NCBI RefSeq assembly: GCF_964194025.1
Contig: NC_134471.1
Coordinates: forward strand, 60,512,001 to 60,576,000
Reading direction: 5' to 3'
Source: Convolutriloba macropyga
Lineage: Eukaryota
Length of the DNA stretch: 64,000 nt
In this document: positions 2,641-50,561 of the stretch, piece by piece
Numbering within the stretch: the first letter of the stretch is position 1
Layout of the letters: the number at the start of each line of letters is the position of its first letter
Position numbers and translations under genes: made by a program
The notes under the pieces: generated by a model
Databases searched by the model: none
What the model was told of the DNA's origin: nothing
Seen by the model: only the letters and a program-made list of their open reading frames with translations

Positions 2641-3078
2641 TTGACAATTACTTCTCTGCATAATTTAAAAGTGTGAATGAGTGCAAACGACAGACAGAGG
2701 TGAGCACGAACAATTTTGCTACCTGCAAAAAAAAAAAACGAATTTTCAAGTACCTGAAGATTGTAAAGAAAGAAAGCTTGCCGTAAGTAGCAAAATCAGA
2801 AAATTTGAAAGTAGAAGCGATAAACAACCTCGCTCAATGGTTTGACATTTAATTTGCAACAGTGGTGACTGACAATGAGTACAAAATTTTTGAGTGGAAA
2901 TCTTTCATTTGGCTACATTTATCTCCGAATAGCAGAAACGGAAAAAAGAAAAAATTGTGTGTACTAGACTACTCTAATAAAGAGGTGACTATTCAATATC
3001 GCCTATCGTAGACAAAACCTGAGAAACATTTTCGTCTTCGTTTAAAAATCCTCTTCACAGACGAACTATACCAGCAAC

Positions 3079-19705: not shown

Positions 19706-22234
19706 TCTGAAGTTTTCGAACTTGGGCATCTCTTATAGCTCATTCTCATGTCCTTTTTTGCTCCTCAAGGTTTCGTTTCTCTAGCCAAGTATATGTTGAA
19801 CAAGTATAGGTTTCTGTCAAGATTACCTTAAGCACAATGTGCATTAGATTGATTTCTCTCCTCTGAACCTTCTAACAACAACAGCCTGATACGGCATGAA
19901 CCAAAAACAGCTGGCGATTTGTTAAAAAATTACCCTGATGACCTCAATTGGAATTTGCTGTGTTCTCTGAAGTAAAAGAACGCAGTTTTTTTGTTTAAAA
20001 TGACATGACCAGTGGATATAAAAATGTTGGCTCAATCTGTTTTCGAGATATTCAAGTAGTTGGTATCTCAAACCATGCTTTTACTGGGTTTTTCGTTTAT
20101 CGACCTGAGCTGCATTGACTGAAGACTACAAGTTTGATGGCGTTCTAACTGCAGACGCCATGAGCAGAAGAATTGGGGGAAAAACTAAGCCTAGAGATGC
20201 CAAAATAATCACTCAAGTTGTTTGAAAAACCTCAAAATAAACAATTATTTGGTTCACAAAATAAAAAAAACATAGCAGGAAAGTCCTGAAATACAATTCA
20301 AAGAATTGAATGAAGAACTTAGAAGTACTCTACCTGACCAGCAGATCAATTGAACATGGCAGCCAAAAGACAAACAAAATCATCTCAAGAAATTAAGAAA
20401 CTAAAACAATCAAACAAACTAAACAAAAATATACTCATTACTAAAACTCTTGAAGCTCTTACCCCTTAGGCAAAATTTCATCCCTTTAAATATGCCTATT
20501 TCAAAAATATGCTCATGGCCACTTTTTGTTTTTGGAACTGGTCCAGTACTATGTCTGCATGGCCTGCAAAAATTCATTGGCCCTTGAAGATCGTTTAACT
20601 CAAAAATTACCAAAAATTTAAAAATTGAAATCAATTGAAAACTTTAATAAAATTTGGCTGAAAATCGTGATATTAATATCTTCAGAATCATTTCTGTGTC
20701 TCTAGAGGCTATCCATTAACCCAATTCTAAGCATTAAAAAAATCATTGGCTCAAAGATCGATAGGCAATAATTTTAAGAAAAAAATCTCAAATTTCAAAC
20801 AATAGAAATTCGTTCCATTAAAATGTTGAAAACTGTTCAATTGCGCCCTTGAACTATATAAAAACATACTGTCAAACCCAGGATAAAGTTAGCTGGCTCC
20901 TGAGGCAAGATGAAAAAAAATGAATAAAAGACAAATGTTCTGAAAAAACTTTAAAAAAATTGCAAATTTTATCAAAAACTTTCACAAAATTCGAAAGTTT
21001 AAATTGTTCAAAACAAATCCATTGCTAACAACCATGCAGTATCTCTTTATCAGACCGTGGAATAGGTTTTCTGGCACTTGAGCGGGAACAAATATCAAAA
21101 AATGACAAAAACTGTAGGAAACTTTGAAAAAATTGCAAATTTTATCAAAAAAATGCAAAATTTCAAGACATTAAAATGTTGGAAACCAATCCATTATTAC
21201 TAGATACTATGCTGTCGTCTTCTATAAAACCGCAAAGGACATTTCCTGGCCCCTGAAGCTGGAAAACTTAAAAAATGACGAAAATTTTTGAACAAACTTG
21301 AAAAAATAGCAAAAATTAGTATCATTTTGCGTGTTTGTATTTGTAGTACCAAAATACATAGCTCATAGACGCTCATAGCGATTTATATTGTCTTGCAAAA
21401 AGGCCTTAATCATTTTTCAAAATTTTCAACCCAAGAAATCAAACAAAAAACTCAAAAAAAAACACAGAAAACATGAAAAAATGTAATATTTTGAGCCCAA
21501 AAACTCCTAAAAATGACCTTTTAACCTTAAATTAAGGCCATCCCAGCAGCTGCACCACTATAAGCACTTGAAGGACTACTGAAGCCCACTTTGGGCCTCT
21601 AATGAAACTTAATGCCCGCTGGGCTTTACCTGTTTATCCCGTTTTAAAAGATCAAACTCATTGAAAAATATAATTTAAATTCTTTGAATTGTAAAAAACA
21701 TAGCAGGACAAGTTCTGAGCAACAATTCAAATAGTTTTTTTTATTCAAGAAACTAGACATCAAATGGACTATGAAAGGATTGGAGAATCCATTTTGAAAA
21801 AAAAATCAGAAAAAAAAATCAAAAAGTAGTAAAGATGCCGCATTTGAAGAACCAGTAGCCAGAAAGTGAATTTTTGTTCAAACACCGTTTTTTCATTCTT
21901 CGTCAAAATTAAAGCGGAAAAATGCGCGCCACAAAACCGCTCGTTTTTTCGCTACACTTCCTGTTTCGACATGACCAATATCATCAGTTCACTTTGACTT
22001 CAATTATGAAAATGTGTGAACAGATCTTTAACAGCGACCCAATGCAATTCAAAAATTGTTTGAATTGTAAAAAACTGCAGAAGTTCAAAATAACATTTTA
22101 TAGTGCACGGCCAAGAAGTGGGCGTCCGCTTGATACAGAAGTCAATTTGACATGATAAGTAAACATTTTTTGATACATTTTTGAGAAAGTGATAAATTTT
22201 TTGAGAAATTGATGGGCACAATTTTTCAAGCCTT

Positions 22235-23660
22235 AGTAGTAATAGTTAAGCAAGAGTGGGGGGGTAAAAAGACGTACCTATGTATAAAGATTACGTATAG
22301 CCCATATTCCCTCAAATCCCAAAGACGTACCTCACAGCATGATACCCAAGGTGTTCAAGCGAGGGGGATTAGAAAGTTAATCCCTTAATATTAAATTAGT
22401 AAGGTCATTCACTCATTCCCATATTGCACTTTATTAATGTAAATTTCCAAAGACGTACCTCACAGCATGACACCCAAGCTGTTCTCACGAAAGGGATTAG
22501 CAAGATAGTGCCTTAACAGCAAATCAGTAAGGTCATTGACCCCTACCATATTAGACTTTACTGATGTCAATTTCCAAAGACGTACCTCACAGCATGACAC
22601 CCAAGCTGTTCTCACGAAAGGGATTAGCAAGATAGTGCCTTAACAGCAAATTAGTAAGGTCATTCACTCATTCCCATATTGCACTTTTTTAATGTAAATT
22701 TCCAAAGACGTACCTCACAGCATGACACCCAAGCTGTTCTCACGAAAGGGATTAGCAAGATAGTGCCTTAACAGCAAATCAGTAAGGTCATTGACCCCCT
22801 ACCATATTAGACTTTACTGATGTCAATTTCCAAAGACGTACCTCACAGCATGATACCCAAGCTGTTCTCACGAAAGGGATTAGCAAGATAGTGCCTTAAC
22901 AGCAAATCAGTCAGGTCATTGACCCCCTACCATATTACACTTTACTAATGTCAATTTCCAAAGACGTACCTCACAGCATGACACCCAAGCTGTTCTCTCA
23001 AAGGGGATTAGTTAGGTAATGTTTTGATAATAAATTAGATAGGGTGACTCATTTACACTTACGTACGGTTTACTAGATTTCCAAAAAACGTACCTCACAG
23101 CTTGATACCCAAGCTGTTCACACGAAAGGGATTAGCAGGATAATGTTTTAATATTAAATTAGGTAGGATGACTCATTTACAGTTACGTACGTTAGACGTG
23201 ATTTTCAAAAATGTACCGCACAGCAAGATACCCAAGCTGTTCACACGAAAGGGATTAGCAAGATAATGTTTTAATATTAAAATAGATAGGATGACTCATT
23301 TACACTTATGTACAGCTTACGTGATTTTCAAAAATGTACCTCACAGTATGATACCCAAGCTCTTCACACTAAAGGGATTAGCAAGATAGTGTCTTAACAA
23401 CAAACTAATAAGGTCATTGACCCCCTAACATATTAGACTTTACTAATGTCAATTTCTAAAGACGTACCTCACAGCATGATACCCAAGCTTTTCACACGAA
23501 AGGGATTAGCAGAATAATGTTTTAATAATAAATTAGGTAGGATGACTCATTTACAGTTACGTACGACTTTTCAAAAATGCGCCTCACAGCATGATACCCA
23601 CGCTGTTCACACGAAAGGGATTAGCAAGATAATCCCTCAATAACAAACTAGTTTGGCTTG
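22235..23660 (+). repeat. Left TIR region: tandem array of 11 units of ~116-128 bp
   Basis: Core AAAGACGTACCTCACAGCATGAYACCCAAGCTGTTCWCACGAAAGGGATTAGCAAGATA starts at ~22321, 22449, 22576, 22704, 22832, 22960, 23084, 23208, 23331, 23458 and 23574. Confidence 0.95.
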
Positions 23661-23670
23661 CTCATATATT

Positions 23671-24295
23671 AGCCACTACTCCTATTCATTATTTCAAACA
23701 ACTTCTAGAAATCAGTTGGTTGAAATTTTAGTTTAATTTTTCTTTTTTCAGATAGTGTTTGTTTCTTTCTCCTTTCAGCAAGAAGAGTTTCAAGTTGAAC
23801 ATTTGCAGTGTTGAAGCGGGTAGGCAAACAAATTTAATAAATAGAAATTTTCCTTTGTTTCTGTATTTAAACTGGACCATTTTAGCCAGCCAAAATATCC
23901 CCAAATATTAGATATTGCAACACATCACTTCAATTCCAAAACCACAAAAAAACTGGTAAGTTTGCGTTTATTAAGCCGCTACTATTCCCAAGCCACTACT
24001 CCTATTCATTATTTCAAACAACTTCTAAAAATCGGTTGATCCAAATTCTAGTTTAGTTTATCCTTTTTTTTCAGATAGTCTTTGTTTCTTTCTCCTTGTT
24101 GCCAGTTTCAAGTTGAAGACTTGCAGTGTTGAAGCGGGTAGGCAAACAAATTTAATAAATAGGAATCTTCCTTTGTTCCTGTATTTAAACTGGATCATTT
24201 TAACCAGCCAAAACTTCCCCCTATAGTAGATATTGCAACTATTCACTTCACCTTTAAATCCAAAAAAGAAACTCGTAAGTTTGCTTTTATTAAAA
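23671..24295 (+). repeat. Diverged direct duplication of ~320 bp inside the Polinton
   Basis: Both copies start AGCCACTACTCCTATTCATTATTTCAAACAACTTCTA (23671, 23991) and end GTAAGTTTGC.TTTATTAA. Confidence 0.9.
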
Positions 24296-24361
24296 CCTGT
24301 TTTTGTGGTAGGAATATATACCCAATTATTGAATTAAAAAAACCATTAATAATCATAAAAT

Positions 24362-24475
24362 TCGCACGTGATTAGACAATTAGTCACTATTTTATAGTCA
24401 CAATTAATCATAACATCACAATTACATCATAGCTCGTCACAATTAGGTCATAGTGTTGTCATAATTACGTCATAT
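24362..24475 (+). promoter_or_regulatory. Putative pPolB promoter: phased ~20-bp motif array
   Basis: Five TCAYAATTA-N(1-2)-TCAY-like motifs plus CACGTG and TTACGTCA upstream of pPolB. Confidence 0.5.
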
Positions 24476-24657
24476 TTATTAAAGGACATTTCATTTCCGT
24501 TTTATTTTCATTTTTCTGATTTACAGAATTGAGTGCAGTTGAGAACAATAATCATTACAACTTTTGAAAAATATTTTATTCCATCGCAACTTACATTAAC
24601 ATTTTTTTCACTCCTCCTTTCTCACTCCTAATCTTACAGTTTATTTTCTTTCCAGAG

Positions 24658-27600
24658 ATGCCTCGGAAGTCGGACCAAAAAGAACTTTGCAATTCTTGTG
24701 ATAAGCTTATTTTGAAACCCAATATGAGCAGACATCAGAAGCTTCACGCAAAAAGATGTTTACAGTGCTTCCAGTCATTTCCAGACGACGAGAAACTGCA
24801 GCGTCACATTGCTTCTAAACATGCTCCATCTCTCACTCAAAAGAAGAAGTTTTCATGCGGCAGCTGCAATTCAACGTTCTCCACATATTATCAACTTCTT
24901 CATCACAAAAAAAACAGTCACCAACGTTCAATTCCTAGCACCTACGAGGAAGTTGACTTATCTGTCTATGGAGACTCTCCCGCTCTTCATAATGAACTTC
25001 AAACGGTTCAACACTTTCTGAGAGACTCGGTTCTTGAATTGTCCAGAAAGAAAGTTCACAACTTCAAAATAATGGAGATCAACCATGAAACAGTGATCGA
25101 AAAATTGGATTGTGTTTACAACGAGTTACCCAGTTCAGCTTAAATCAATATTTCGTTTGGATTCGTTCTGCAGAGTGTTCAAAATCCTGAAGAATTTCGC
25201 TACTACTACGCAGCAGATAACAACCCCGTATTCCTAAATCCCATGGTTCTCTCTGATGACTCAGATCTCAATTATATTAAATCAATGCTGAGACAAGATG
25301 AATTTTTTCCAAATCTAATTAATCAACGTCCAGACACAAAATGGAAGTTTTATTGTGTTACAAATGTCACTTTCTTTGTATTTCTCCTCAGTGGTGTTCC
25401 GCTAGGATGCATAGAACAATCAATTCCATCAACATTACTGAGGAATCCAATAGTTAAATGTTTTGTGTCTGACTGTGAAAAAAGACCTTATCAAGACAAT
25501 TTGTGTATGTTTCGTGCACTGGCCTATGAATTACATGGCAGCAATGAGCTACAACAAAATACAATGGAATTGATGCAGATGTTTCTCTCAGCGACAAGGA
25601 GAGATGACGAAACCTTCCCAGGAATACATGAAGACGATATTCCTGTTCTTGAGAATCTAGTTGACAGAAACATTCAAGTTTACTCAATATTTTTTGACGA
25701 ACAATCGGAAATGCTTGCTGAACTTACTCGTCGCTCCTCGATGAAACGTTCAAAGACAACTTCGTTACTGAGATACGAAAATCACATTTGTTGGACAGCA
25801 GACATCAACAAATTCCTCAAAAAGTTCCGGTGCTACGTATGCGATCACTTTTTCGATAGATCAAATAATTTGGAAGTCCACATGAGGAATTGCTCAGAGA
25901 GAACAAAACACCACTATCCCTCAGGTGTCTATCAAATATCAGAAACTATTTTCGAGCGCTTGGAATATGTAAATATTAATGTTCCGCAGGAGCTGAGATT
26001 GTTTTCTCATCTTATCGTATTCGATTTTGAGTCAATAACAGTCCCCGACAGTACACTCAAAAACACAGATTTGACTTCATGGATTGGAAAACATGTCCCC
26101 ATTAGTGTGTCAATATCCTCGAATCTAATCTCCGAGCCAATTTTTATTTGCAACGAAGATCCGCTTCAACTGATCCGTGATTTTGTGTACAGCTTGACTA
26201 ATATAGCAGAAAAAAGCACACTTCTAATGAAGGAAAAACTCAATAATTTCGTGTTGGAATTGGAAGAAAAATATTGGGCAGTACGACAATTGGTTCCAGT
26301 GAAAGACAAGCAGTTACCTACCGGAGCGGAAGACTTTTGGACAACGAGGCGGAACCTGACGGCGAGTAAGACGAAGACATTGAAATTCAGAGACTGAGAT
26401 GTGAGCTCAAGATGTTATCAAACTTGAGACAAGATTTTGAGAACTATTACAGCACCATTCCTGTGTTTGGGTTCAACAGTTCGAGGTACGATTTGAACTT
26501 AATCAAAGAGTATCTTCTGCATCACCTCTTAATAGAAAAAAACGTTATTCCTAGAGTGATTCGAATGGGGAATAAATATATTGGCATGAATTTTCTTGGT
26601 CTACAGTTTCTGGACATTTTAAACTTCCTGGGAGGAGCGACAACTCTGGATAACTTCCTAAAAGCCTATGGAGCAAGTGAAGAAAAAGGTTTCTTCCCCT
26701 ATGAATGGTTCGACAGTATTGAGAAGTTGAATGAATCCCAACTGCCACAAATCGACAGCTTTTGGAGTAAGTTGAAGAACCACAACGTTTTGTCGGTCGA
26801 GTACGATAAGTTTGTGCAATTGAAAAACGGTGGAATGGAGCAGGATGAAATTTTGAAGAAGTTGAGACTCAAGAAAGTTCCACAAAATGCCGAAGAAAAT
26901 TACTTGGAGCTCCAAAATATATGGGAAAGAAAAGGTATGCAGACGTTTCGTGACTTCCTCATGTGGTACAATAACAAAGATGTCGAACCTACACTTGAGG
27001 CTATGAAGAAAATGATCAGTTTTTACCACTCAAGACAAGTAGACATGTTGAAGTTGGGCTACACTCTTCCCAACTTGGCAAACAGGTTCCTTCATTCGTC
27101 AACAGATGCAGCTTTTTTTCCGTTTTGTGAGAAGGATAAAGAATATGATAATTACATTCGAAAGTGGCTAACAGGGGGACCCTCAATTATCTTTACAAGG
27201 TATGCGAAAGTTGGTGAAACAAAAATTCGAGAGTCAGAAAACGTTTGCAAGTCCATCGTCGGAATAGATGCCAGTCAGTTGTACCCTTTTTCCATGACAA
27301 AAGAGATGCCAACAGGACCCTATACAAAGTGGGAGTACAATGAAGAGACTGAAAAATTTCATCCGAACAGGAACTGGAGAAGCTACTTTGAACAGCAGGT
27401 CATGGACTACCTCCAACAGGTTCACCCCAATTGTAAAATACAAACCCAGTTCACACACAAGAAACAAAAGAAGCTCGGTCCTTATTTAGTTGATGGGTTT
27501 TGTAACCATTGCAACACGGTTTTTGAAGCGATGGGTTGTTTCTTTCATTTTTGTCCGTGTCAAGAGGAAAAACCACTTCTCTTCGAGGACATAGAAAGCC

Positions 27601-28985
27601 GATTGAAGCGAAGAGAACGTGACAATGACAGAAGAGAGTACCTGAAGGGATTGGGGTTGAATGTTGAAGAGATCTGGGAGTGTCAATGGAAGAAGTGGAG
27701 GAGCGAAAACACAAATGGGGTTAAAGACTTTCTCAAGTCAAATTATCCCTTCCAACCATCGATGAACAAAAACTCGCTCATTGAGAAAATTAAACGTGGA
27801 GAACTGTTTGGTGTCGTCGATTGTAGTCTTGAGGTTCCAGAGGAAATGTATCCGTACTTTGAAGACTTTCCTCCAATTTTCAAGAATTGTGAAGTTGGAC
27901 GAGATGATATTGGGGACCATATGAAAGAGTTTGCAGAACGCAACAAATTACTACCCAGACCCAGAAAAATGCTCATTTCCAGTTTCAAGCTTGAACGAGG
28001 ACCAGTTATTACACCACTTTTGTTATTTTATCTAGAAAAAGGTGTGATCCTAAAAGACGTCTTTTGGTTTCTCCAATACACTCCCCGGCGCTGCTTTGAG
28101 ACATTTGTTCAGAATGTTGTCGATGCCCGCCGCGAAGGAGACCAGAATAAGGAGTCAACAGTCGTTGCGGAGACAATGAAGCTGATTGGGAACAGTTCGT
28201 ATGGATATCAGATCATGGATCGTAGTCGACATACGAACACCAAGTACGTGAAAGGCTCACAGGTGGACAAATTTATTAACAATAGATTTTTCAAGACTAT
28301 GAATGAGCTACTAGAGCAGATATATGAGGTAGAAATGAGCAAGACACGCATCGAGCATAAGGAACCAATAATCGTAGGATTCTTCATCCTCCAGTACGCC
28401 AAACTCACCATGTTACAACTTAAATACAACTTCTTCTCCCCTTTCTGTGATAAGAACAAGTACGAACTCATTGAAATGGATACCGACAGTCTCTACATGG
28501 CCCTTAGTGAGGAAAAAATTGATGAAATCATTCGACCGGAAATGCGATCAGTGTGGTACTGGATGAGACAGAGCGACTGCAATGATAACTTTGCAGCAAA
28601 CTCCAGCAGCAATTTCTTCCCACGAGAATGTTGCAAAAAACATGCTGCCTTTGACAAGAGAACTCCTGGACTTTTTAAGGAAGAATTTAGATGCTCTGAG
28701 ATGATTGCTCTGTGTTCAAAGACGTACTGCTGTTACGATGAGGAAACAGACACAGTTAAACTATCAAGTAAAGGACTCAACAAGAAAAACATTGAGGAGC
28801 CCCTAAACAAGTACAGAAAAGTTCTGTTCGATGAGGAGCGAGTTTATTCAACAAATCGTGGCTTCAGAGTTGTTGACAACAAGAAAGTTTGTACCTATGA
28901 ACTAAAGAAAGTGGGACTGTCATATTTTTATCCCAAGCGTAAAGTCTGTGAAGATGGTATTCACACTACTCCTTTAGATTTATAA
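24658..28985 (+). pseudogene. Protein-primed family B DNA polymerase (pPolB) polyprotein, disrupted
   Basis: Three N-terminal C2H2 fingers, vOTU-like C/H motifs, exonuclease motifs (VFDFES, GFNSSRYD, YNNKDV) and polymerase motifs (DASQLYP, KLIGNSSYG, MDTDS, KTYC, SSKG). Lesions: in-frame TAA at 25141, 1-nt frameshift at the T-run 26335-26338, and TAA at 26367. Confidence 0.95.
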
Positions 28986-29214
28986 CTCGTTTTCTTTAGT
29001 CTTGTATTTATATCGCCTCTTTTTTAATTCACAGTTTTCCTACCAAAATCTCTTTTCAACAAAATACCTTTTTTTGAAATAAGTGAATTAGATACAAATA
29101 CACATACAAATAATAAAATACAAAATTACAAAACCTCAATAGAAAGTTTTGAAAACCATTTGCAACATTTTACGGATTACTGTTTAAAAATTTCAAGATT
29201 TTGGTTTTCAAAAC

Positions 29215-29610
29215 TTACAAAACATCAGCAAAGAACTTCAATATATGAAAATCATTTAAATATTTAGATGAGACTTTGGAAAATAACACATGGGCAAAAT
29301 AAATAGCATATAAACCACACAATTCTGAATCTTGGAGTTTCTCCTGTACTAATGAACCAAAGTTTGCTTTTGTCCTGATGCCATATTTTTCCAAAACTTC
29401 TCCCATCGAATCACCGTAGAACAACTTTCCATTCTTATTCGCAAGCAAAATCCAGTGGGAGCCCGGTTGAGTAGATGGATCTATGTTGATTATACAAAAC
29501 GTGTTTGTAGGTAAATTTTTTGGTCGAAGATCTGCAGGGAAGGAACCGAGGTATTTGAACTTTAGGTGTGGGAACCTGTTGACAACATGTAAGAGTTGTT
29601 GATTATCCAT
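29215..29610 (-). CDS. Adenain-like cysteine maturation protease
   Basis: IINIDPSTQPGSHW (His), FYGDSMG (Asp), KLQDSELCGLY (Gln/Cys). The likely start MDNQQ at 29610 overlaps the capsid stop. Confidence 0.92.
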   Translation of the reverse strand: MDNQQLLHVVNRFPHLKFKYLGSFPADLRPKNLPTNTFCIINIDPSTQPGSHWILLANKNGKLFYGDSMGEVLEKYGIRTKANFGSLVQEKLQDSELCGLYAIYFAHVLFSKVSSKYLNDFHILKFFADVL

Positions 29611-30841
29611 TTTTGGTGACTGATCCCTCCTTATCAATTGCAATTGAACTTATACGTTCACCACTAACAAATAATTCTACAGTATTGGTCAAATTGTTAG
29701 CAAAGTAGAGCTCTAAACGAATTCCTGCTCCAACTACATCAGGAAAATGCATTTCGACATTGGCCTCCTGTGTTGAAGTAAGATCGAAAAATAAATGAAA
29801 ATGGTTTTCAAAATCCTTGTATTGAATGTTAGGACCGTCATCATCAAACTTGAGTGCTTTCATTGTTTCAGCATAAGCTCTCACGTGATTTTCTGTTTTC
29901 AAGTTGACTATAGTTTGATTCCCACGCACAATTTTAACTTGCCGAAGGCCAAATTTACGAAAATGGAACGGATTCGTGTTGTATGTTCCACTGAACTCAT
30001 TATTCAGATTCATAGCAATATCAATCATTCGAATTGGTTTGTTTGAAAATATATTTTCTTGTATAAACTGGTTCTGTCCTGCGGGAATAATAAACGTCTT
30101 TGGAAGTTCTTCATTATAGTAAAATATGGCAGGTTCTCGAAGCAGTCTGCTTTTGAAACTTCTCATCCAGTTATCTGAGATTGCTACCTGTCTAGTAAAA
30201 AGGCAAGCTTCCAAAATTAAGGCCTCAGAGTTCAGCCCACCAGTATCGATCATATAGAACGCTGGAGAAGACCGGATCAACTTCAGTCTGAGGTTGACAT
30301 TTGGGAGAAGTAAAGTTTCACAAGCAAATAGACCTATTGCCAACGGACCGTAAAAAGTAAACTCATCTTTATCTTTTTGAAAAACAACATCTGTAAACGG
30401 TCTTTTATTAAAATCGTTTGGCTCAATCTCGTATCGATATCCTTGACATTGAGACAAGCTTTCCTTCGTTCCTTTTGTACCTGAAAACTCAGCAGAAACA
30501 AAAGCTTGATGAGCATAAAGAGAATTGGCACTGTGAACTTGTTCATTGTTTAGATAGACTTCGCAATTAGAAAAAAGTGAATGAAGAGCATTGTTTACCA
30601 ATAATGTTTCTTCGGCATTATCCAAACGTGTTCGATCGCCTTTAATAACCCTTCCTCTGATGAATAATCGACTAGATCGCAAGTCAGTGAAAATATTACG
30701 ATCAGTTTCCAATTGAAATTCGATTGTTGACTCGTTTAAGGAATTTGTTGGAAATATTTGTTGTTCATTGGACCAAAGAATTGGGTCTAAAATTGGAACT
30801 TTCCCAAAAAAGTCGAGCATAGAGTGAGATAAGGAATTCAT
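29603..30841 (-). CDS. Major capsid protein (double jelly-roll, hexon-like), ~412 aa
   Basis: IFPTNSLNESTIEF, FTDLRSSRL, NNALHSLFSNCEVYLNNEQV, LLPNVNLRLKLIR, NPFHF and FFDLT are typical Polinton MCP motifs. ATG at 30841. Confidence 0.9.
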   Translation of the reverse strand: MNSLSHSMLDFFGKVPILDPILWSNEQQIFPTNSLNESTIEFQLETDRNIFTDLRSSRLFIRGRVIKGDRTRLDNAEETLLVNNALHSLFSNCEVYLNNEQVHSANSLYAHQAFVSAEFSGTKGTKESLSQCQGYRYEIEPNDFNKRPFTDVVFQKDKDEFTFYGPLAIGLFACETLLLPNVNLRLKLIRSSPAFYMIDTGGLNSEALILEACLFTRQVAISDNWMRSFKSRLLREPAIFYYNEELPKTFIIPAGQNQFIQENIFSNKPIRMIDIAMNLNNEFSGTYNTNPFHFRKFGLRQVKIVRGNQTIVNLKTENHVRAYAETMKALKFDDDGPNIQYKDFENHFHLFFDLTSTQEANVEMHFPDVVGAGIRLELYFANNLTNTVELFVSGERISSIAIDKEGSVTKNG

Positions 30842-30881
30842 TTTAGCCGACCGTTTTTTATAATGATAATCGAGGAAATGA

Positions 30882-31679
30882 TCAAGATTTTTTCTGGAAT
30901 AATAAAGTAAGTTGAACTTGACCAATAGGGAAGAAGGGAACAAGGTGTCCAGCAGCGTTTCTTAATTCTACATGGATACTGTGGAAGTTCGATTTGATTA
31001 CTTTATGGAATCTCAAGTGTTCGAAACTGCGATAACTCAGAACTTGCGATCTCTTAATCTCATCATTATGGAAATCTCGGTGTTTGAATGGAAAGGAGCG
31101 TAGAAGAGGACATTTCACATCACCGACTGAATTGGGTTCAACTATATCCAAGTAGAGTAAAACTGTATGTGTTCCAGTAATATCAAAAGGGAGATCTGCC
31201 GTTGCCCAGGACTTGGTGTTGTATGATCTTTTCGAATAAGGCATAACAGGTTTGTCAGCTTCAACGCCCAAGTTAGCAGCCAAACTTTTGCTGAATGATA
31301 CATTTTGAGATTCTCTATTGCAAAAAGTTAGTCTTCGACTTTTTTTGTCGATATTGATGGAAAATTGAGGATCTAAGTTTTTGGGATGTCGTGCTTTTTT
31401 GGGAATATCTGTAAGACTCTTTACAAATTCATCCATAGAGTTAAAAACTGCTGGTGGAATGTTGAAGACATGCTTAAATTTCTCATCATAGTGAAAGGTC
31501 ATCAATCCTCCTTCAACGTTATAACATATACCGGGATATGATACTTCGACTAAAGCTACTTCCCAAGATCCATTTAGTTCAATTTTGTCGGGAAGAAAAT
31601 TAGTGAATGAAGCCATTGTATTTTGAGGATAAACTTGAGAGGAAGCGTTGGATACTAATTCAAGATAAAACGAATTCAT
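30882..31679 (-). CDS. Minor capsid protein (penton)
   Basis: FYLELVSNAS...YPQNTMASFTNFLP...LNGSWEVALVEVSYP N-terminus; YLDIVEPNSVGDVKCPLLR...LTLLF C-terminus. Confidence 0.9.
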   Translation of the reverse strand: MNSFYLELVSNASSQVYPQNTMASFTNFLPDKIELNGSWEVALVEVSYPGICYNVEGGLMTFHYDEKFKHVFNIPPAVFNSMDEFVKSLTDIPKKARHPKNLDPQFSINIDKKSRRLTFCNRESQNVSFSKSLAANLGVEADKPVMPYSKRSYNTKSWATADLPFDITGTHTVLLYLDIVEPNSVGDVKCPLLRSFPFKHRDFHNDEIKRSQVLSYRSFEHLRFHKVIKSNFHSIHVELRNAAGHLVPFFPIGQVQLTLLFQKKS

Positions 31680-31720
31680 GATGTTTGACTGTACTCTGTG
31701 ACGTTTGTTTGGGAAAATGA

Positions 31721-32059
31721 TTAGTCAAGGTTCTTTAGAAAGTCTTTCCGAATTTTTTGCCGAACGAAACTTTGTCTCGTGTTTTTCCTCTTTTTCATAC
31801 CACCACCAACTTGTTTTCGTATTGTTGATTTCGCAGTCTTCTTTACTGCTCTTTTAATTGAAGTCTGTCCTGATAAAACATCTCCAATTTCGGGAATGGC
31901 TGACTCGATTACATCTCGTCCAATTTTTTTTGCTGCAGGTAAAACGTATTTCTTGAGAATTGGGAGAGTTGTTCTAGCGACTGTTCTAGCCAAGGCTCCA
32001 AAGCCACGCCCTCTCTGACGAGGAACTCCTTTAAAATAAGGCAGATTGTAACCGTCCAT
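31721..32059 (-). CDS. Small basic/amphipathic virion protein (core or membrane-penetration candidate)
   Basis: QRGRGFG and QVGGG glycine motifs resembling adenain sites, amphipathic helices and a K/R-rich tail. Lies beside the penton. Confidence 0.7.
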   Translation of the reverse strand: MDGYNLPYFKGVPRQRGRGFGALARTVARTTLPILKKYVLPAAKKIGRDVIESAIPEIGDVLSGQTSIKRAVKKTAKSTIRKQVGGGMKKRKNTRQSFVRQKIRKDFLKNLD

Positions 32060-32086
32060 TTTCTAGCGCGACTAATTGAAAAATGA

Positions 32087-33031
32087 TTATTTAACTTTTG
32101 ACAATTCTTGCTCGTAAAAGATTCCATCAATGTTTTCTCCTTTCTGATCAACAACAAAGTAAGTCGGGAAAGGAGCCAAAGTGTTTATTTTTCGAATTAG
32201 AAAAATTTCATGTGTATAGTGAGGCTTATATCCTTTTTGAAAATTGTGCCCTACTAATACCAACCGAACTTTATCACCTACTTTAAAATTAGGCTTTTTG
32301 TTTTTTCGTAGTTTCATCCGCTTGTACAAGACAGTCAAAAAGTCAGCATTTACTACATTTTTGGGAGCCAAACCAATACTTCGATTTATTCTAGAGTTGA
32401 TGATGTCAACAAACATTTGCAGGTCTTTGATGTAAGATAATGTGTCCTTTTCCTCCAGGTAGCGGTAAATTAAGTTTTTCAGGGTTCGTATAGCTCTCTC
32501 GCCAAAAGCTACTTTTGTTTCACTATAAGTGTGATAATATTTGACTCCCACATCCTCGCAGAAATTGGCCATATCTCCGAAAAACTCTTTTCCTTGATCT
32601 AGCCATAATTTTTTCGGGAAATTGAGTTCGTTCTTTTTCGAACACATTTTGATAAAAGCTGCTTTCACACCCTCTGCTCTTTTGCTTCGTAATGCTTCTA
32701 CTCGCAAGAATCGAGAAAAAACATCGACAGTAACGAGTAAAAAGTTGATACCTCGGTTCCATTGTGATAGTTTATCCATTTGTGCAAGATCCAAACACCA
32801 AATCTCATCAATATAGCGAGCATGCGCATTTAGCCGGGGAAATTTTCTTCTGATCCCTTTGTACTTCGTATAAGAGTCTTTTGATTGTAAAAAATCTGTA
32901 ACTTTCTCGCGACTTATTCCACTTGATTTTGTTAGGTTGTTGATAGAACCGAAAGCTGTTGGTCCCTTCCCTTTATACAACTTCTGCAATTTGATTCTAT
33001 CTGAAACTGTAATTGAACCAGTCTGAGCCAT
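32087..33031 (-). CDS. Retroviral-like (rve) DDE integrase
   Basis: WCLDL (D), VDVFSRF, LWLDQGKEF (D), GERAIRTLK (E); FKVGDKVR and FYEQEL in the C-terminal part. Confidence 0.95.
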   Translation of the reverse strand: MAQTGSITVSDRIKLQKLYKGKGPTAFGSINNLTKSSGISREKVTDFLQSKDSYTKYKGIRRKFPRLNAHARYIDEIWCLDLAQMDKLSQWNRGINFLLVTVDVFSRFLRVEALRSKRAEGVKAAFIKMCSKKNELNFPKKLWLDQGKEFFGDMANFCEDVGVKYYHTYSETKVAFGERAIRTLKNLIYRYLEEKDTLSYIKDLQMFVDIINSRINRSIGLAPKNVVNADFLTVLYKRMKLRKNKKPNFKVGDKVRLVLVGHNFQKGYKPHYTHEIFLIRKINTLAPFPTYFVVDQKGENIDGIFYEQELSKVK

Positions 33032-33467
33032 ACTGTGTCCTCAAAATGTTGTTTTTAGCCAGATATGGTCTCAGATTTAGAACTTTAAGAATTAGGAAAT
33101 AGTTTGGATCAACTGGAGCGTTTTCCAATTTGATTGAATGAAGGAATGTTTTTATATCAACTCCAGTGTCAACGTTGTCAACAATAATTGTATTGGAAAG
33201 TGAAACTTTCAACCGTTTGTTTTCGTAAATTTCCTTCAAAGTTTTCAATGTCTCGGGACTGTTCTTATAGTGAAATTCCAGATCTGTCTTAAGTTCTTTA
33301 GGTGGACGATCGGTTTTTTCGGAACTAATTTCTTCTTTCGCTTTTTTGATAACTGGAAAAACAGTTTCTTCCTTTTTATAGATCTCGCAGGAGGGTTCCG
33401 GTAATTTCCCTTTTCTGGACTCCCACAGTTCTTTTGGAACAAGAACAAACTTTTTGACCTCACTCAT
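32997..33467 (-). CDS. Polinton hypothetical protein, 156 aa
   Basis: ATG-initiated ORF overlapping both neighbours; KKFVLVP N-terminus. Confidence 0.75.
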   Translation of the reverse strand: MSEVKKFVLVPKELWESRKGKLPEPSCEIYKKEETVFPVIKKAKEEISSEKTDRPPKELKTDLEFHYKNSPETLKTLKEIYENKRLKVSLSNTIIVDNVDTGVDIKTFLHSIKLENAPVDPNYFLILKVLNLRPYLAKNNILRTQYGSDWFNYSFR

Positions 33468-33780
33468 TGAAGAAAGTTGAAAATTTGTTCATACAAGGTT
33501 GATATATGTAACCTAGTATTGTTATTCCAGCCTTCGAGCCCAATATAAGTCTTCTGGAATTGAGGGTTGTTGATTTTGACGTGAGCTTTCTAAGTTGTTT
33601 TTGGAAGCGAACAAACTGATTTTTTCTTACTCCTGTGAGGTTTCCTTCAATCAAGTTTACAATACACTCACAGAGAAATCTGATGAACTCTTTAGGACAA
33701 TTTAGAAGGAAAGCTGGTTGAAATTTCTTGCTGAGATTCCGAAAGAGCTTCAGAGTATAATAGTTCTGTGCGTTTATCAT
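33460..33780 (-). CDS. Conserved Polinton small basic protein
   Basis: LCECIVNLIEGNL...KQLRKL motif resembles the small ORF that commonly follows Polinton ATPases. Start codon uncertain (first ATG ~33780). Confidence 0.7.
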   Translation of the reverse strand: MINAQNYYTLKLFRNLSKKFQPAFLLNCPKEFIRFLCECIVNLIEGNLTGVRKNQFVRFQKQLRKLTSKSTTLNSRRLILGSKAGITILGYIYQPCMNKFSTFFNE

Positions 33781-34432
33781 TAATATCAGTAATACGAGCA
33801 CGACTGTTCGGTACGAAGAAATCTGAGGGAAATGATGTTACATTTGAACAGTATCTCAACAAATCAGGTGTAGATGGTCTCAAATCAATCATAAGATGAC
33901 CATACGGTTCTTGTGTTGCATCATCATACCACTGTTTTAGTTGTCTTCCGAGACCTAGCTGTCTTCCCAAGATATCAATCTGCTGCACATCTCTCGGTGA
34001 TTTGAACAAAACAATGTGAGTAGTCTGCAGCTCGGCATCACGTCCAGTTTTGTTTTTGTGGAAGAGATTATGCTTGATATATACACAATTTAGGTTTCGA
34101 TGTCTACCGGCTGTCGCAATTCCGTTGAACTTTTCCGACTTGGAAAGAATGTCCAATGAATCATCGAATAAAAGTAAATATTTAGTGCCGTCAGCGGGTA
34201 AGTTATCGATTAAATCAAAGTCAACTCCCTGAATGAATTCTATGTCTGCAATTGATTGCATCATTGTGTCGTAAATTGGCTGAAAGTGCTTATAAAAGTA
34301 TAAAATTCGATCAAATGATGGCTGAAAAGTTTTCATTCGTAGCATATCATTGATAAAAACAGTTTTTCCAGATCCGGAAGGACCAACAAGATACATCAAA
34401 GTTCGTTCGTTTGTTGAAATGATTTTGTTCAT
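33692..34432 (-). CDS. FtsK/HerA-family (A32-like) genome packaging ATPase
   Basis: Walker A GPSGSGKT, Walker B LLLFDD, GRH arginine finger, HIVLFKSPRD, PYGHLMIDL. ATG at 34432. Confidence 0.95.
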   Translation of the reverse strand: MNKIISTNERTLMYLVGPSGSGKTVFINDMLRMKTFQPSFDRILYFYKHFQPIYDTMMQSIADIEFIQGVDFDLIDNLPADGTKYLLLFDDSLDILSKSEKFNGIATAGRHRNLNCVYIKHNLFHKNKTGRDAELQTTHIVLFKSPRDVQQIDILGRQLGLGRQLKQWYDDATQEPYGHLMIDLRPSTPDLLRYCSNVTSFPSDFFVPNSRARITDINDKRTELLYSEALSESQQEISTSFPSKLS

Positions 34433-34433
34433 T

Positions 34434-34688
34434 TTATGTTCGGGGATTAGGAAGTATATAACCAACGGCACTTGAAAGAATAGCAATCCAAACTGTCCGT
34501 TCGTCACAAGTTCTAGCAAAAATAAGATTAATAATTGAAAACAGAAGCAGTACTAATACAACTAAGCACTGAAATATTGACAAAAAAGCTGTTCGAGAGC
34601 AAGTGCGACCACAGATTTTCCAAGGAGGTCTTTCCTGATTGTTATTATCAAAAATAAAGTCAGATGCGTGATTGAGATGATCTGTCAT
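34434..34688 (-). CDS. Small two-helix membrane protein, 84 aa
   Basis: Hydrophobic stretches AFLSIFQCLVVLVLLLFSIINLIFA and VWIAILSSAVGYILPNP. Its stop abuts the ATPase ATG. Confidence 0.8.
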   Translation of the reverse strand: MTDHLNHASDFIFDNNNQERPPWKICGRTCSRTAFLSIFQCLVVLVLLLFSIINLIFARTCDERTVWIAILSSAVGYILPNPRT

Positions 34689-34730
34689 TAGAGAGCAACT
34701 GATTTTTGTTCGTCTTTAGGAAATAATGAT

Positions 34731-35225
34731 TCACACTTTGATTAATTGGAATCGTGATGACATTTTCAAAAAACAACAATATGCAAGACCTGTTATATGT
34801 CCCAAGAAACAAAAATTCAATATAGAATTAAAAAATGGAACAACGTAACAATATCCAGGGCCAATATTTAGATTTGTTTTCAGGTAGCCTGCGGCATCAT
34901 GAAATGTAGCATGTAATCGAAAAATTTTTGAGCAATTGAGAAGTTTTTCTAACTTTGAGTCACCAACTCCTATTAGTCCCCCAAACGGAGTTTCTCTGTT
35001 GATTTTATCCAGATATACATTTTTGTTCAAGCTTCGACAGACAGCCAAAAAATAATTTTTGCGTTTTGTATTTCCAACAAAAAGTTTACTGATTTCTTTC
35101 TCTAACGCTACAATTTCCTCAATGTTCATATCAAGCAACTGTACTGGAACATTAAATTTTAAAAAGTGATTAAAAACAAACATCACAACATACAATATTA
35201 AAAATTTACAATTACTGTTATGCAC
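34731..35225 (-). CDS. Polinton hypothetical protein (start uncertain)
   Basis: Open frame co-oriented within the cassette; no motif recognised. Confidence 0.55.
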   Translation of the reverse strand: MHNSNCKFLILYVVMFVFNHFLKFNVPVQLLDMNIEEIVALEKEISKLFVGNTKRKNYFLAVCRSLNKNVYLDKINRETPFGGLIGVGDSKLEKLLNCSKIFRLHATFHDAAGYLKTNLNIGPGYCYVVPFFNSILNFCFLGHITGLAYCCFLKMSSRFQLIKV

Positions 35226-35967
35226 TTTGCGATCTTTTTTGATTTTTGACTTTGTTCAGCACTGAAATAATTTCATCACTCATTCTGTGTAGTTTCTCCA
35301 TCTCACCAATTCTGACCGAAAGAAAGCATTTCCTTCTGAAAATGTCCTTTTCACTCCCTCGTGTGAACAGCTTGATTGTGAAGTAACATCGATTCGGGTC
35401 ATCTTGGAAAAATATTCTAGTTACACACACCTTCCGTCGAGCAGTCTCACTCACCTCCCAGAACACATCAAATTTTGCTTTTTCCTCAACATCAGTTGGT
35501 TGGAACACAGTTTCGTCAATCACCAGCTTCGCAGTACCTACAGTAGGTTCGAACAGTAGTGCTTCTTTTATCATCTCAGGTATCTTTTCAATAACAAGCT
35601 TCAATTCTCTGGCCGATAGCATCAGAAATTGATGCAGAACATATTCACTTTCCACATTTTTGCGAAATACTTTCAAGTGAGTCCAGTTAGAGTTTGAGTT
35701 GACGGTTTCCTCTGGGATGCTGATTTGAAAATTCCGGTTCCCGTATTCTTGAAAGGACCAACAGTTGTTTCTTCCATCGTGCTCCTCATTTGGTTTTGAG
35801 TCGGTGTTGTCTTTTTTATCGTTGTTGTCTTTAAATAGAGAAAACATGCTCTCATTGTGGTATTCCAATTGTGGTGAGGGAACAACTGGTTTTCCTTTGT
35901 AATCTCGTTTACGGAGGGGAAAGGAGAATGGTTTTTTGGAGTTAGGAGAGACAGAGCTTTGATCCAT
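35218..35967 (-). CDS. Hypothetical protein, 249 aa, with two putative PC4-like ssDNA-binding repeats
   Basis: Two similar strand-strand-helix blocks: HLKVFRK..FLMLSARELKLVIEKIPEMI and TIKLFTR..FLSVRIGEMEKLHRMSDEII. A splice acceptor directly precedes the ATG. Confidence 0.7.
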   Translation of the reverse strand: MDQSSVSPNSKKPFSFPLRKRDYKGKPVVPSPQLEYHNESMFSLFKDNNDKKDNTDSKPNEEHDGRNNCWSFQEYGNRNFQISIPEETVNSNSNWTHLKVFRKNVESEYVLHQFLMLSARELKLVIEKIPEMIKEALLFEPTVGTAKLVIDETVFQPTDVEEKAKFDVFWEVSETARRKVCVTRIFFQDDPNRCYFTIKLFTRGSEKDIFRRKCFLSVRIGEMEKLHRMSDEIISVLNKVKNQKRSQSA

Positions 35968-36094
35968 CTGTGAAATGAGAATGTGAAGTATGTAAAGTTT
36001 TTAAAGCAGAAAATTTGGGTCTACAAGGGTAACTGAATATTGAAATCGCAAAGAAACAAATGAATAAATTGTCTTCAAGAAAGGGGTTGATATC

Positions 36095-36290
36095 TTGAAC
36101 CAATGAAATTTAAGTAAGAACGAGAACAGTAGCGAAAAATAAACTTCGTATCCAATGAGATGTTATAAAATAATTCGTAACCAATGAAAATAGAGCGTGC
36201 ATCATGACGTAATAGTTATGTCACTTCTATTTTTAGTAACATCACGTGATGCCAAAGATGAGTTTTCTATATTTAGTCACGTGAGGGTGA
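36095..36290. promoter_or_regulatory. Putative promoter between the 193-aa and 249-aa ORFs
   Basis: Three CCAATGA boxes (~36100, 36152, 36181), TGACGTAA and two TCACGTGA E-boxes within 200 bp. Confidence 0.5.
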
Positions 36291-36321
36291 ATTTAGCATC
36301 GAACAAAAGCGAGTTATCTCA

Positions 36322-36903
36322 CTATTCTATTGGAGAACACTTATAGTTCGAGAAAGGAATATTTTGATGAGATGATTGAGTCTCTTCATTGTCAGTTTCC
36401 TGGATCGGAGGAAGAATAAGGTCTTTGAAATCGGGCAGATTGAAGGCTTCTGGTTTTTTAGAAAATGAGTCAGCATGCTTGGAGAACATGTCTTCTACCC
36501 ACCAAACACCGTAGTGATTTATGTCACGAGAGTACGGGAACATAATTCCTTTGCTGTCTTTCAACGGGTGAAACCCTTGTTCTTTTCGAATTCTTTCAAT
36601 GATTTGAAAATAAGTTTGGAGAGAAAGCAATGAATTGTTGACTTTTTTTTCGGCTAGGTGGAGGTTATGATGTCTAGCTGCCTCTAAAGTTCTCCACAAA
36701 TCCTTCGGAAGTGTCAAGCTAGTTGTCTGAGTTTTAATTGTTACTCTAGTGCAATCCACCTCAAAAGATAATTCCAAATTGTTATCGGTTACTACCGTTT
36801 TAAATATTGATGCTTCCGTGATAGGAGCGTAATCTAAATCTGAATGAAAAGTAGAAAGAAAAGATGTTGAAGGAAGTAAAGGAAGAATTGGAGTATTTTG
36901 CAT
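36322..36903 (-). CDS. Hypothetical protein, 193 aa, possible PC4-like segment
   Basis: ATG ORF nearest the right TIR; RVTIKTQTTSLTLPKDLWRTL resembles the PC4 ISLxxxxWxxL motif. Confidence 0.65.
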   Translation of the reverse strand: MQNTPILPLLPSTSFLSTFHSDLDYAPITEASIFKTVVTDNNLELSFEVDCTRVTIKTQTTSLTLPKDLWRTLEAARHHNLHLAEKKVNNSLLSLQTYFQIIERIRKEQGFHPLKDSKGIMFPYSRDINHYGVWWVEDMFSKHADSFSKKPEAFNLPDFKDLILPPIQETDNEETQSSHQNIPFSNYKCSPIE

Positions 36904-37179
36904 TTTTTTAGGCTACTTATGTTCAACCAAGAAAAAAGACAAAATGAATCGTAAATGTTTTTCAGCATCAACATTCCAAAATCAGATCTGACATATTATG
37001 TGATTGGTTAAAAAATAAGAAATAGACATTTTCAAAACAATAATACAACTTTTTCTGAAATCGGAAAATTGGAACTTCAGTTTAAAACGACACAGTGAAA
37101 CACTATTTTAAACAAAAAATTGATTAAAATTGTAAAAAAAAAATCTGTAAAAACCAAAAATAAAAAATTGTACTTTTTT

Positions 37180-37861
37180 GTTAATATGGGAATGGGTGGG
37201 TAAATGACCTTATTAGTTTGTTGTTAAGACACTATCTTGCTAATCCCTTTAGTGTGAAGAGCTTGGGTATCATACTGTGAGGTACATTTTTGAAAATCAC
37301 GTAAGCTGTACATAAGTGTAAATGAGTCATCCTATCTATTTTAATATTAAAACATTACCTAGCTAATCCCCCTTTGTGTGAACAGCTTGGTGTCATGCTG
37401 TGAGGTACATTTTTGAAAAGTCGTACGTAACTGTAAATGAGTCATCCTAATTTATTATTAAAGGATTATCTTGCTAATCCCTTTCGTGTGAACAGCTTGA
37501 GTATCATGCTGTGAGGTACATCTTTGGAAATCACGTAAACCGTACGTAGTGTAAATGAGTCACCCTATCTAATTTAATATTAAAACATTACCTAACTAAT
37601 CCCCTTTGAGAGAACAGCTTGGGTGTCATACTGTGAGGTACGTCTTTGAAAATATACATTATTAAAGTGCAATTTGGGAATGAGTAAATGAACTAATTTA
37701 ATATTAAGGGATTAACTTGCTAATCCCCCTCGTGTGAACAGCTTGGGTATCATGCTGTGAGGTACTTCCTTGGAATTTGAGCGAAAATGGGCTATACCTA
37801 ATCTTAATACATAGGTACTTCCTTTTACCCCCCCCCCCACTCTTGCTTAACTATTACTACT
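37180..37861 (-). repeat. Right TIR region: 5 inverted copies of the same unit
   Basis: Reverse-complement core (GCTAATCCC...CTGTGAGGTAC) occurs five times between ~37235 and ~37770. Confidence 0.95.
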
Positions 37862-38407
37862 AGCCTTACTGGACTTAAGCCAGCTGAAAAATTGAGCAGA
37901 AAGTTGAAAGTAGTTTTCAAAAGCAGTCAGTCTTAGAGAAACTGTTCATATTATTTAAAAATTTGCTGAAAACAGTGCAGCAATGTGAGCAATTGTTGTT
38001 GATTGATTATAAAATGAAAATTTGTCCATTCCATAATGCTAAAATGGAAAAATTGGAGCAATTTGAAAATTGCCAAAATGAGTTAGCTTTGAAGTTTTTT
38101 TAGTTTTTGGTTATTTAAGTTTCCAACTAACAAAGTATTTTACTAGTCCCAAAAAACATTAGCAAAATTATGCACGCCGCTTAAAACGAAAACTAAGAAT
38201 ATTGGCGAAACCCAATAAATGGCGTCAAACAGTGTGCACGAAATTTTTGCATCAAAACTTCACCTCGGCAACTTATATAGTAGCCTGGTCCATTTTGGTT
38301 AAAAGTGGGCCTTACATAAAATTCTCGCATTTTGTCTCTTAATTGAGATTTGAAATAGATCTCATTTTAACATCGATTTTTTTGTTTCGGGAAGTAATTT
38401 GGACGCG

Positions 38408-50507: not shown

Positions 50508-50561
50508 TTCTTCTAGCAACGCGTTCATAGATAACTGTTCTATCAGTTCTCTTGTTTTTAG

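What the first reader, a model, noticed from the sequence alone, without database searches (positions are those of the whole stretch)
22229..37867. Complete endogenous Polinton/adintovirus with intact virion and integrase modules but a crippled polymerase
Seen: perfect TSD and terminal sequence. All ORFs of the minus-strand cassette look open, while pPolB has two nonsense codons and one frameshift. Inference: a fairly recent insertion that could still supply capsid proteins or be mobilised in trans by an intact sibling.
Basis: partly seen in the sequence, partly recalled or inferred. Interest (0 to 1): 0.7.

Follow-up and report, generated by a model that had tools for sequence, protein, structure and literature searches.

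The report
Decaying copy of a young Polinton
A 15.6-kb virus-like transposon (Polinton/Maverick) sits whole in an animal genome with three breaks in its polymerase gene and twelve open genes on the other strand, but comparison with dozens of sister copies indicates that this split is likely just chance decay after insertion, so the copy is ordinary.

Summary
A 15,627-bp Polinton/Maverick (22235-37861) has a perfect 6-bp target duplication, AGTAGT...ACTACT ends, 12 minus-strand ORFs of the family's modal length, and a pPolB broken at 25141 (stop), about 26336 (one-base frameshift) and 26367 (stop). No covering sister locus shares these breaks (0 of 57, 0 of 59, 0 of 58). The pattern 'open cassette, dead polymerase' is not special. 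In 25 sisters, breaks are as dense in the cassette as in pPolB (0.72 against 0.63 per kb, p=0.38). Of 42 full-coverage sisters, 3 show the same state, 7 the reverse, and none is fully open. The copy's private substitutions (about 0.25%) look neutral in both modules, and 11 private missense changes already lie in the cassette. It is a young insertion that is drifting. No fully intact helper was found, and no sign that dead copies were multiplied in trans, but only part of the family was sampled. Public reads could not test the breaks or an empty site. The family is strongly recombinant. The scan noted other Mavericks in this genome before. New member of a known kind; low interest.

The parts
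22229..22234 (.). Left copy of the 6-bp target-site duplication (AGCCTT)
22235..37861 (.). Whole Polinton/Maverick element, 15,627 bp, ends AGTAGT...ACTACT
22235..23652 (.). Left terminal inverted arm, with a tandem array of about 128-bp units (9.5 copies at 22312-23511)
23671..24293 (+). 318-bp non-coding duplication; each unit has acceptor-like and donor-like motifs, and an acceptor-like motif ends at 24655 just before the pPolB ATG (predicted spliced leader; untested)
   Evidence: acceptor-like motif before the start ATG in 31 of 36 sisters
24658..28985 (+). Broken protein-primed B-family DNA polymerase gene: C2H2 fingers at the N-terminus, putative terminal-protein and vOTU region (motif reading, fold not tested), exonuclease, palm with a VSR/DUF559-like insert
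   Evidence: the 857-aa C-terminal piece folds like phi29 polymerase (E=2e-9)
25141..25143 (+). Private nonsense codon after residue 161
   Evidence: 0 of 57 covering sister loci have a stop
26333..26337 (+). Private one-base frameshift, between the Exo I and Exo II motifs
26367..26369 (+). Private nonsense codon in the downstream frame
   Evidence: 0 of 58 covering sister loci
29215..29610 (-). Adenain/Ulp1-like cysteine protease, 131 aa, open
   Evidence: weak Pfam C48 and C5 hits below cut-off; His, Asp and Cys motifs present; no private change
29603..30841 (-). Double jelly-roll major capsid protein, 412 aa, open, one private missense
   Evidence: model pLDDT 87.8; Foldseek hits to iridovirus, PBCV-1, Sputnik and mavirus MCPs, best E=1e-15
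30882..31679 (-). Probable minor capsid protein (penton), 265 aa, open
   Evidence: 25% identical, E=2e-17, to the gene at the like position in viral contig L100; label from position and recall, fold not tested
31721..32059 (-). Conserved basic 112-aa ORF with a QRGxG motif (probable core or membrane-active protein; label recalled)
   Evidence: homologue in L100, E=4e-9
32087..33031 (-). rve integrase, 314 aa, open, D-D-E motifs present
   Evidence: PF00665 E=5.8e-9, over cut-off
32997..33467 (-). 156-aa ORF of unknown function, open
   Evidence: modal length in sisters
33460..33780 (-). Conserved 106-aa ORF, open
   Evidence: homologue in L100, E=9e-9
33692..34432 (-). A32/FtsK-type packaging ATPase, 246 aa, open; Walker A and B present; two private missense changes
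   Evidence: PF04665 E=5.9e-8, over cut-off
34434..34688 (-). 84-aa ORF with two hydrophobic stretches, open
34731..35183 (-). 150-aa ORF of a widespread unnamed family with conserved GGxIG and HAxxHDAxG motifs (PLA2-like by recall only); two private non-conservative changes
   Evidence: 444 relatives; motifs; no Pfam or PDB match
35218..35967 (-). 249-aa ORF of unknown function, open
36322..36903 (-). 193-aa ORF of unknown function, open
37198..37861 (.). Right terminal inverted arm, with about 4.5 units of the same array
37862..37867 (.). Right copy of the target-site duplication

Best explanation
This is a full-length Polinton/Maverick copy with three private breaks in its polymerase gene and twelve open cassette genes, which likely inserted as a working element and has since decayed neutrally, the breaks likely falling in pPolB by chance. 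Shown: anatomy, TSD, membership of a multi-copy family, privacy of the breaks, equal break density in both modules among sisters, neutral-looking private substitutions. Inferred from family knowledge: the rve integrase made the 6-bp TSD; pPolB would copy an excised linear genome from its ends; ATPase, protease, MCP and mCP would package it. Inferred for this copy: it cannot replicate by itself, because the first stop cuts the protein at residue 161 and the surviving 857-aa frame lacks the N-terminal priming region and the Exo I motif. Its ends are whole, so rescue by another copy's polymerase is possible in principle but is not evidenced.
For: Breaks private: 0 of 57, 0 of 58 and 0 of 59 covering loci share them. 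Break density in 25 full-coverage sisters of the first 36: 68 in pPolB (0.63/kb) against 131 in the cassette (0.72/kb), p=0.38; chance that all three fall in pPolB by length alone is 0.052, or 0.139 if the two breaks 30 bp apart count as one event. Among 42 full-coverage sisters of 63 loci: 3 have a broken pPolB with 12 of 12 cassette ORFs open, 7 have an open pPolB with a broken cassette, 32 have both broken, 0 are all open. Private substitutions: pPolB 13 in 4328 bp, cassette 16 in 7290 bp, p=0.44; pN/pS 1.67 and 0.71, neither different from neutral; 1.3 stops expected and 2 seen. Variation shared by 3 or more copies has pN/pS 0.16-0.17, and the window's cassette differs from it (13:5 against 91:182, Fisher p=0.0016, 36-sister set). 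Rare 1-bp indels scale with private substitutions across 22 copies (r=0.84, intercept -1.27 +/- 0.91), as ageing predicts and a constant assembly error does not.
Against: p=0.052 for three independent breaks in pPolB is borderline. Private counts are small (11:5 in the cassette), so weak selection cannot be excluded. The stretch 26000-26400 has no sister above about 94%, so part of pPolB comes from an unsampled lineage and 'private' there may predate insertion. The breaks are not confirmed in reads. Only 63 loci were read; each search scored 40 of 223, 437 and 681 candidates. The sample was chosen by likeness to this copy.
Confidence: 0.85

Rival explanations
1. The three breaks are assembly errors and the element is fully intact.
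For: No laid contig from four public runs carries the window's letter at 25141 or 26367. In sisters, 40% of rare 1-bp indels lie beside homopolymer runs of 5 or more, against 8% background.
Against: The same runs also lack this copy's harmless private alleles (24770, 25776, 26189), and four runs do not cover its unique right flank, so they probably do not hold or have dropped this locus. Two of three breaks are substitutions, in the number expected from the private load. The frameshift is not in a long homopolymer. Indels scale with age.
Confidence: 0.06
2. The copy was already polymerase-dead when it inserted and was copied in trans by a helper.
For: Ends, integrase and virion genes are whole; 7 of 42 sisters have an open pPolB; the region around two of the breaks has no close sister.
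Against: No sister shares any of the breaks. Of 176 stop sites and 304 frameshift sites in 63 loci, the shared ones belong to one duplicated locus, lie mostly in homopolymer runs, or (checked for frameshifts) join copies mostly no more alike than background. Private changes are as dense in the cassette as in pPolB.
Confidence: 0.05
3. The host keeps the virion and integrase cassette of this copy under selection (capsid supply or domestication) while pPolB is free to decay.
For: 12 of 12 cassette ORFs are open with catalytic motifs intact; protease and integrase carry no private missense change.
Against: Cassette private pN/pS of 0.71-0.84 is neutral-like and above the family's 0.16; non-conservative private changes lie in several cassette genes; the reverse state is commoner among sisters (7 against 3 of 42).
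Confidence: 0.04

Closest known systems
Vertebrate Mavericks, intact and degraded copies (Barreat and Katzourakis 2021, PMC8097293; passages seen)
   Same: Size within 12.7-24.6 kb, TIRs, 6-bp TSD, core genes, convergent modules on two strands; most copies eroded by stops and frameshifts, in some hosts all pPolB genes broken; purifying selection on core genes along internal branches.
   Different: Here pPolB stands alone on the plus strand and the ATPase sits with integrase and capsid genes on the minus strand; the arms hold 128-bp tandem arrays of unequal length; this copy fails their 'intact' definition.
Adintoviruses (Starrett et al. 2021, PMC8502044; passages and section 3.1 seen)
   Same: Animal host, adenain-like protease, rve integrase, FtsK-type ATPase, double jelly-roll hexon, pPolB, small accessory genes; degraded endogenous copies are described as widespread.
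   Different: Alpha or Beta class not settled: the window's pPolB pieces do not hit PF03175, while 19 of 120 listed homologues carry it; the names PLA2X, GasderminX and Cupiennin were not tested against their sequences.
VSR-bearing pPolB2 of marine nematode and mollusc Polintons (Jeong et al. 2023, PMC10748475; passages and section 9 seen)
   Same: A VSR/DUF559-like stretch lies inside the palm region (weak PF04480, E=0.0067, below cut-off). The paper foresees gene exchange between closely related Polintons.
   Different: No tree with their sequences was built, so membership of that subgroup is a lead only.
Polinton pPolB architecture TP-vOTU-EXO-PALM (Krupovic et al. 2024, PMC11161782; passages seen)
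   Same: Long N-terminal region ahead of the exonuclease, with candidate catalytic Cys and His motifs.
   Different: C2H2 zinc fingers at the N-terminus (also in some homologues); TP and vOTU folds were not modelled here.

Membership tests
Polinton/Maverick | Terminal inverted repeats | tested here: met
   first 30 nt identical, arms of about 660-690 nt align
Polinton/Maverick | 5-8 bp (usually 6 bp) target-site duplication | tested here: met
   13 of 14 sister loci likewise
Polinton/Maverick | Length 13-25 kb | tested here: met
   15,627 bp; range from PMC10748475
Polinton/Maverick | Protein-primed B-family DNA polymerase gene | tested here: met
   present but broken; C-terminal piece matches phi29 polymerase, E=2e-9
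Polinton/Maverick | rve integrase | tested here: met
   PF00665 over cut-off; DDE motifs
Polinton/Maverick | Packaging ATPase | tested here: met
   PF04665 over cut-off
Polinton/Maverick | Double jelly-roll major capsid protein | tested here: met
Polinton/Maverick | Adenain/Ulp1-like protease | tested here: met
   weak Pfam C5 and C48 hits below cut-off, plus motifs and position
Polinton/Maverick | Single jelly-roll minor capsid protein | tested here: inconclusive
   homologue at the like position in L100; fold not predicted
'Intact' Maverick (Barreat and Katzourakis) | All conserved ORFs unbroken | tested here: not met
   pPolB in three pieces
Adintovirus | Animal host | tested here: met
   Wnt family over cut-off in G000, 0 of 14 controls
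Adintovirus Alpha | pPolB of the PF03175 type | tested here: inconclusive
   no hit for the window pieces; 19 of 120 listed homologues carry precomputed PF03175
Adintovirus (both classes) | OTU-like domain in the pPolB N-terminus | tested here: inconclusive
   candidate Cys and His motifs located (motif reading recalled); no fold or profile test
Adintovirus | Virions or free linear genomes | not testable with these tools
   no raw reads or RNA runs were offered
VSR-bearing pPolB2 subgroup | Clade membership with mollusc and marine nematode pPolB2 | not tested
   reference sequences not at hand; only a weak DUF559 hit

The most novel reading that the evidence does not exclude
The copy is a sample from a recently active, freely recombining Polinton swarm in an invertebrate germline. 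No fully open genome was found among 42 full-coverage copies, yet every gene is open in some copy and insertions are very young. The family may therefore persist by complementation and recombination among partly broken proviruses, or by repeated entry of an unseen circulating virus, rather than through one intact master copy.
Probability: 0.15. Interest if true: 0.55.

Novelty: new member of a known kind. Interest (0 to 1): 0.2.

Why it matters
The copy itself matters little: broken Maverick copies are the rule, and its pattern of breaks is what neutral decay gives. The family is of modest value. It is young, numerous and strongly mosaic, with purifying selection on capsid genes between insertions (pN/pS 0.16), which supports spread through virions and makes this host a reasonable place to look for Polinton particles and for exchange between near-identical elements, which PMC10748475 lists as untested.

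Tried and rejected
Reads: 11 runs were listed, all as contigs; no RNA holder listed, so expression was not tested. Laying 4 runs on 24700-27200 showed no contig with the window's letters at the two stops, but also none with several harmless private alleles; contigs drop rare variants, so this is no evidence either way. Laying 4 runs on the right junction gave no cover of the unique flank, so the empty site was not tested. No second copy of the right flank exists in the assembly, and the left flank is a dispersed repeat whose other copies match only up to about 22079, so no empty paralogous site was available. PDB sequence searches found nothing for the pPolB piece and only chance hits for the 150-aa family; Pfam named none of 52 members convincingly. 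A homologue search for the host MBOAT exon found none, so whether the element lies in an intron is open. Cluster look-ups gave no names. IMG/VR held one distant relative, 26% in MCP. An apparent excess of private changes in pPolB with 36 sisters (19 against 19) vanished with 63 loci (13 against 16); a substitution next to the frameshift that looked private was not private. Seven MCP columns where the window departs from distant homologues are family traits, not lesions. Four paper searches showed, in their listings, no paper on this family or on complementation among Polinton copies; only listings were seen for papers other than the four cited, and no supplements were read, so adintovirus supplement maps may already hold a relative.
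Full report
Observation. The sequence shows AGCCTT at 22229-22234 and again at 37862-37867, around an element that starts AGTAGT at 22235 and ends ACTACT at 37861. The first 30 nt of both ends are identical. The arms contain a tandem array of about 128-bp units, 9.5 copies on the left and 4.5 on the right. One plus-strand gene, 24658-28985, lies in three pieces, and twelve ORFs lie on the minus strand between 29215 and 36903.

Identity. Pfam names the integrase (PF00665) and the A32-type ATPase (PF04665) over their cut-offs, and gives weak hits for the protease and for C2H2 fingers and DUF559 in the polymerase pieces. The 412-aa protein models well (pLDDT 87.8) and matches double jelly-roll capsid proteins of iridovirus, PBCV-1, Sputnik and mavirus. 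The 857-aa C-terminal polymerase piece matches phi29 polymerase best. The 265-, 112- and 106-aa ORFs have homologues in a Polinton-like viral contig. This is a Polinton/Maverick. Its adintovirus class (Alpha or Beta) is not settled.

The family. A DNA search with 1.6 kb of pPolB gave 223 candidates, of which 40 were scored, most at 90-96% identity; searches with the MCP and ATPase regions gave 437 and 681 candidates, 40 scored each; the exact terminal 28-mer occurs 32 times. I read 63 sister loci. Two of them are one duplicated locus and one proved to be largely unrelated inside; 42 cover at least 90% of both modules. Two hits on one short rearranged contig were not carried into this set.

The breaks are private. 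No covering locus has a stop at 25141 (0 of 57) or 26367 (0 of 58); at about 26336, 58 of 59 differ from the window by one base in length and one has a larger deletion. So these are lesions of this copy, not programmed recoding. By motif position, the first stop falls before the candidate vOTU Cys and His motifs, and the other two fall between Exo I and Exo II. The surviving downstream frame keeps all palm motifs but lacks the N-terminal region. I infer that this copy cannot prime or replicate by itself.

The cassette is open, but that is not special. All 12 ORFs have the modal sister length and the catalytic motifs are present. In the 25 full-coverage sisters of the first set, breaks are equally dense in pPolB and cassette (0.63 and 0.72 per kb, p=0.38); by length alone three breaks fall in pPolB with p=0.052, two events with p=0.139. 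Among 42 full-coverage sisters, 3 share the window's state, 7 have the reverse, 32 have both modules broken, and none has all 13 ORFs open; one has pPolB and five core genes open with a single small conserved gene broken. Against 63 loci the window has 13 private substitutions in pPolB and 16 in the cassette (p=0.44 for even spread), with pN/pS 1.67 and 0.71, neither different from neutral; 1.3 stops are expected from this load and 2 are seen. Variation shared by three or more copies is strongly purified in both modules (0.16-0.17), and the window's cassette differs from it (p=0.0016). Eleven private missense changes lie in the cassette, some non-conservative, in the ATPase N-terminal part and in the 150-, 112- and 193-aa ORFs; none removes a catalytic motif listed. 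Counts are small, so weak selection is not excluded.

Age. The private load was 0.32% against 36 sisters, 9th lowest of 37 copies, and about 0.25% against 63 loci. 'Fairly recent' is fair in relative terms; no host rate is at hand to give years.

Assembly error. Public contigs could not decide. Indirect evidence favours real mutation: two of the three breaks are substitutions in the expected number, and across 22 copies rare 1-bp indels rise with private substitutions, with an intercept near zero. Against this, indels in sisters are enriched at homopolymers (40% against 8%), so some sister breaks may be errors, and a fully open sister cannot be excluded.

Mobilisation in trans. If dead copies were multiplied by helpers, inherited breaks should recur at separate loci. 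Of 176 stop sites, 15 are shared: five by the one duplicated locus, one in four copies near a gene start with a downstream ATG, and nine by single pairs. Of 304 frameshift sites, 28 are shared, mostly at runs of 6-8 bases and mostly between copies no more alike than background. I found no clear sign of it. The whole ends and the 7 open pPolB genes leave it possible.

Mosaicism. The nearest sister changes along the element, and incompatibility between 509 informative sites rises from 0.23 under 100 bp to 0.70 beyond 3 kb; 0 of 200 permutations reached the observed local compatibility (window plus 22 sisters). The family has recombined heavily, before or after insertion. This is the most interesting property seen, and it belongs to the family, not to this copy.

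Comparison. PMC8097293 (passages) reports that most vertebrate Mavericks are eroded, that in some hosts all pPolB genes are broken, and that core genes are under purifying selection. PMC8502044 (passages and section 3.1) defines the adintovirus gene set and notes degraded endogenous copies across animals. PMC10748475 (passages and section 9) describes fragmented ORFs, VSR-bearing pPolB2 and possible exchange between close elements. PMC11161782 (passages) gives the TP-vOTU-EXO-PALM layout. No supplements were read. The labels PLA2-like, core protein and penton for small ORFs rest on recall or position.

Verdict. Real, correctly described, and ordinary: a young, neutrally decaying member of a known kind of element. 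Interest 0.2.

Noticed in passing
window 24600-37200 against sister loci: The copy is a mosaic: the nearest sister switches along its length, and site incompatibility rises with distance. The pPolB N-terminal half is the most variable part (median 87-93% against 96-99% in the cassette).
   Followed up: yes
L023:2679-3254 (also L022, L024, L039): An optional 192-aa ORF sits upstream of pPolB in 4 of the first 36 sisters and is absent from the window copy; no Pfam family over cut-off.
   Followed up: partly
window 23671-24657: A duplicated 318-bp unit with acceptor-like and donor-like motifs, and an acceptor-like motif just before the pPolB ATG in 31 of 36 sisters, suggest a spliced non-coding leader.
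   Followed up: partly
L067 (G000:C10, about 28,911,900-28,918,400): One internally deleted sister has its right terminus repeated five times at about 1.6-kb spacing, each followed by the same six bases.
   Followed up: no
L026/L028 (G000:C3, about 68.01-68.03 Mb): One locus holds an inverted duplicate of a cassette-less copy with identical breaks and the same flanking hexamer.
   Followed up: partly
L073, about 6840 onward: A 1053-aa ORF unrelated to the element's genes follows a truncated sister, perhaps a nested mobile element.
   Followed up: no
   Followed up: no
window 26540, 27120, 31345, 31930: Homopolymer runs of 7-8 bases are recurrent frameshift hot spots among sisters.
   Followed up: yes
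window 34731-35183: The 150-aa ORF belongs to a family of at least 444 representatives with conserved His-Asp and glycine motifs and no Pfam or PDB match.
   Followed up: partly
window 345-4233: Retroelement fragments; 3046-4233 has a reverse transcriptase domain (PF00078).
   Followed up: no
window 50531-51139 (+): An exon of a host MBOAT-family gene (PF03062); the T-rich plus strand on both sides of the element hints at an intronic site, untested.
   Followed up: partly
window 21500-22079: The left flank is a member of another dispersed repeat family, about 80% identical to many loci.
   Followed up: no
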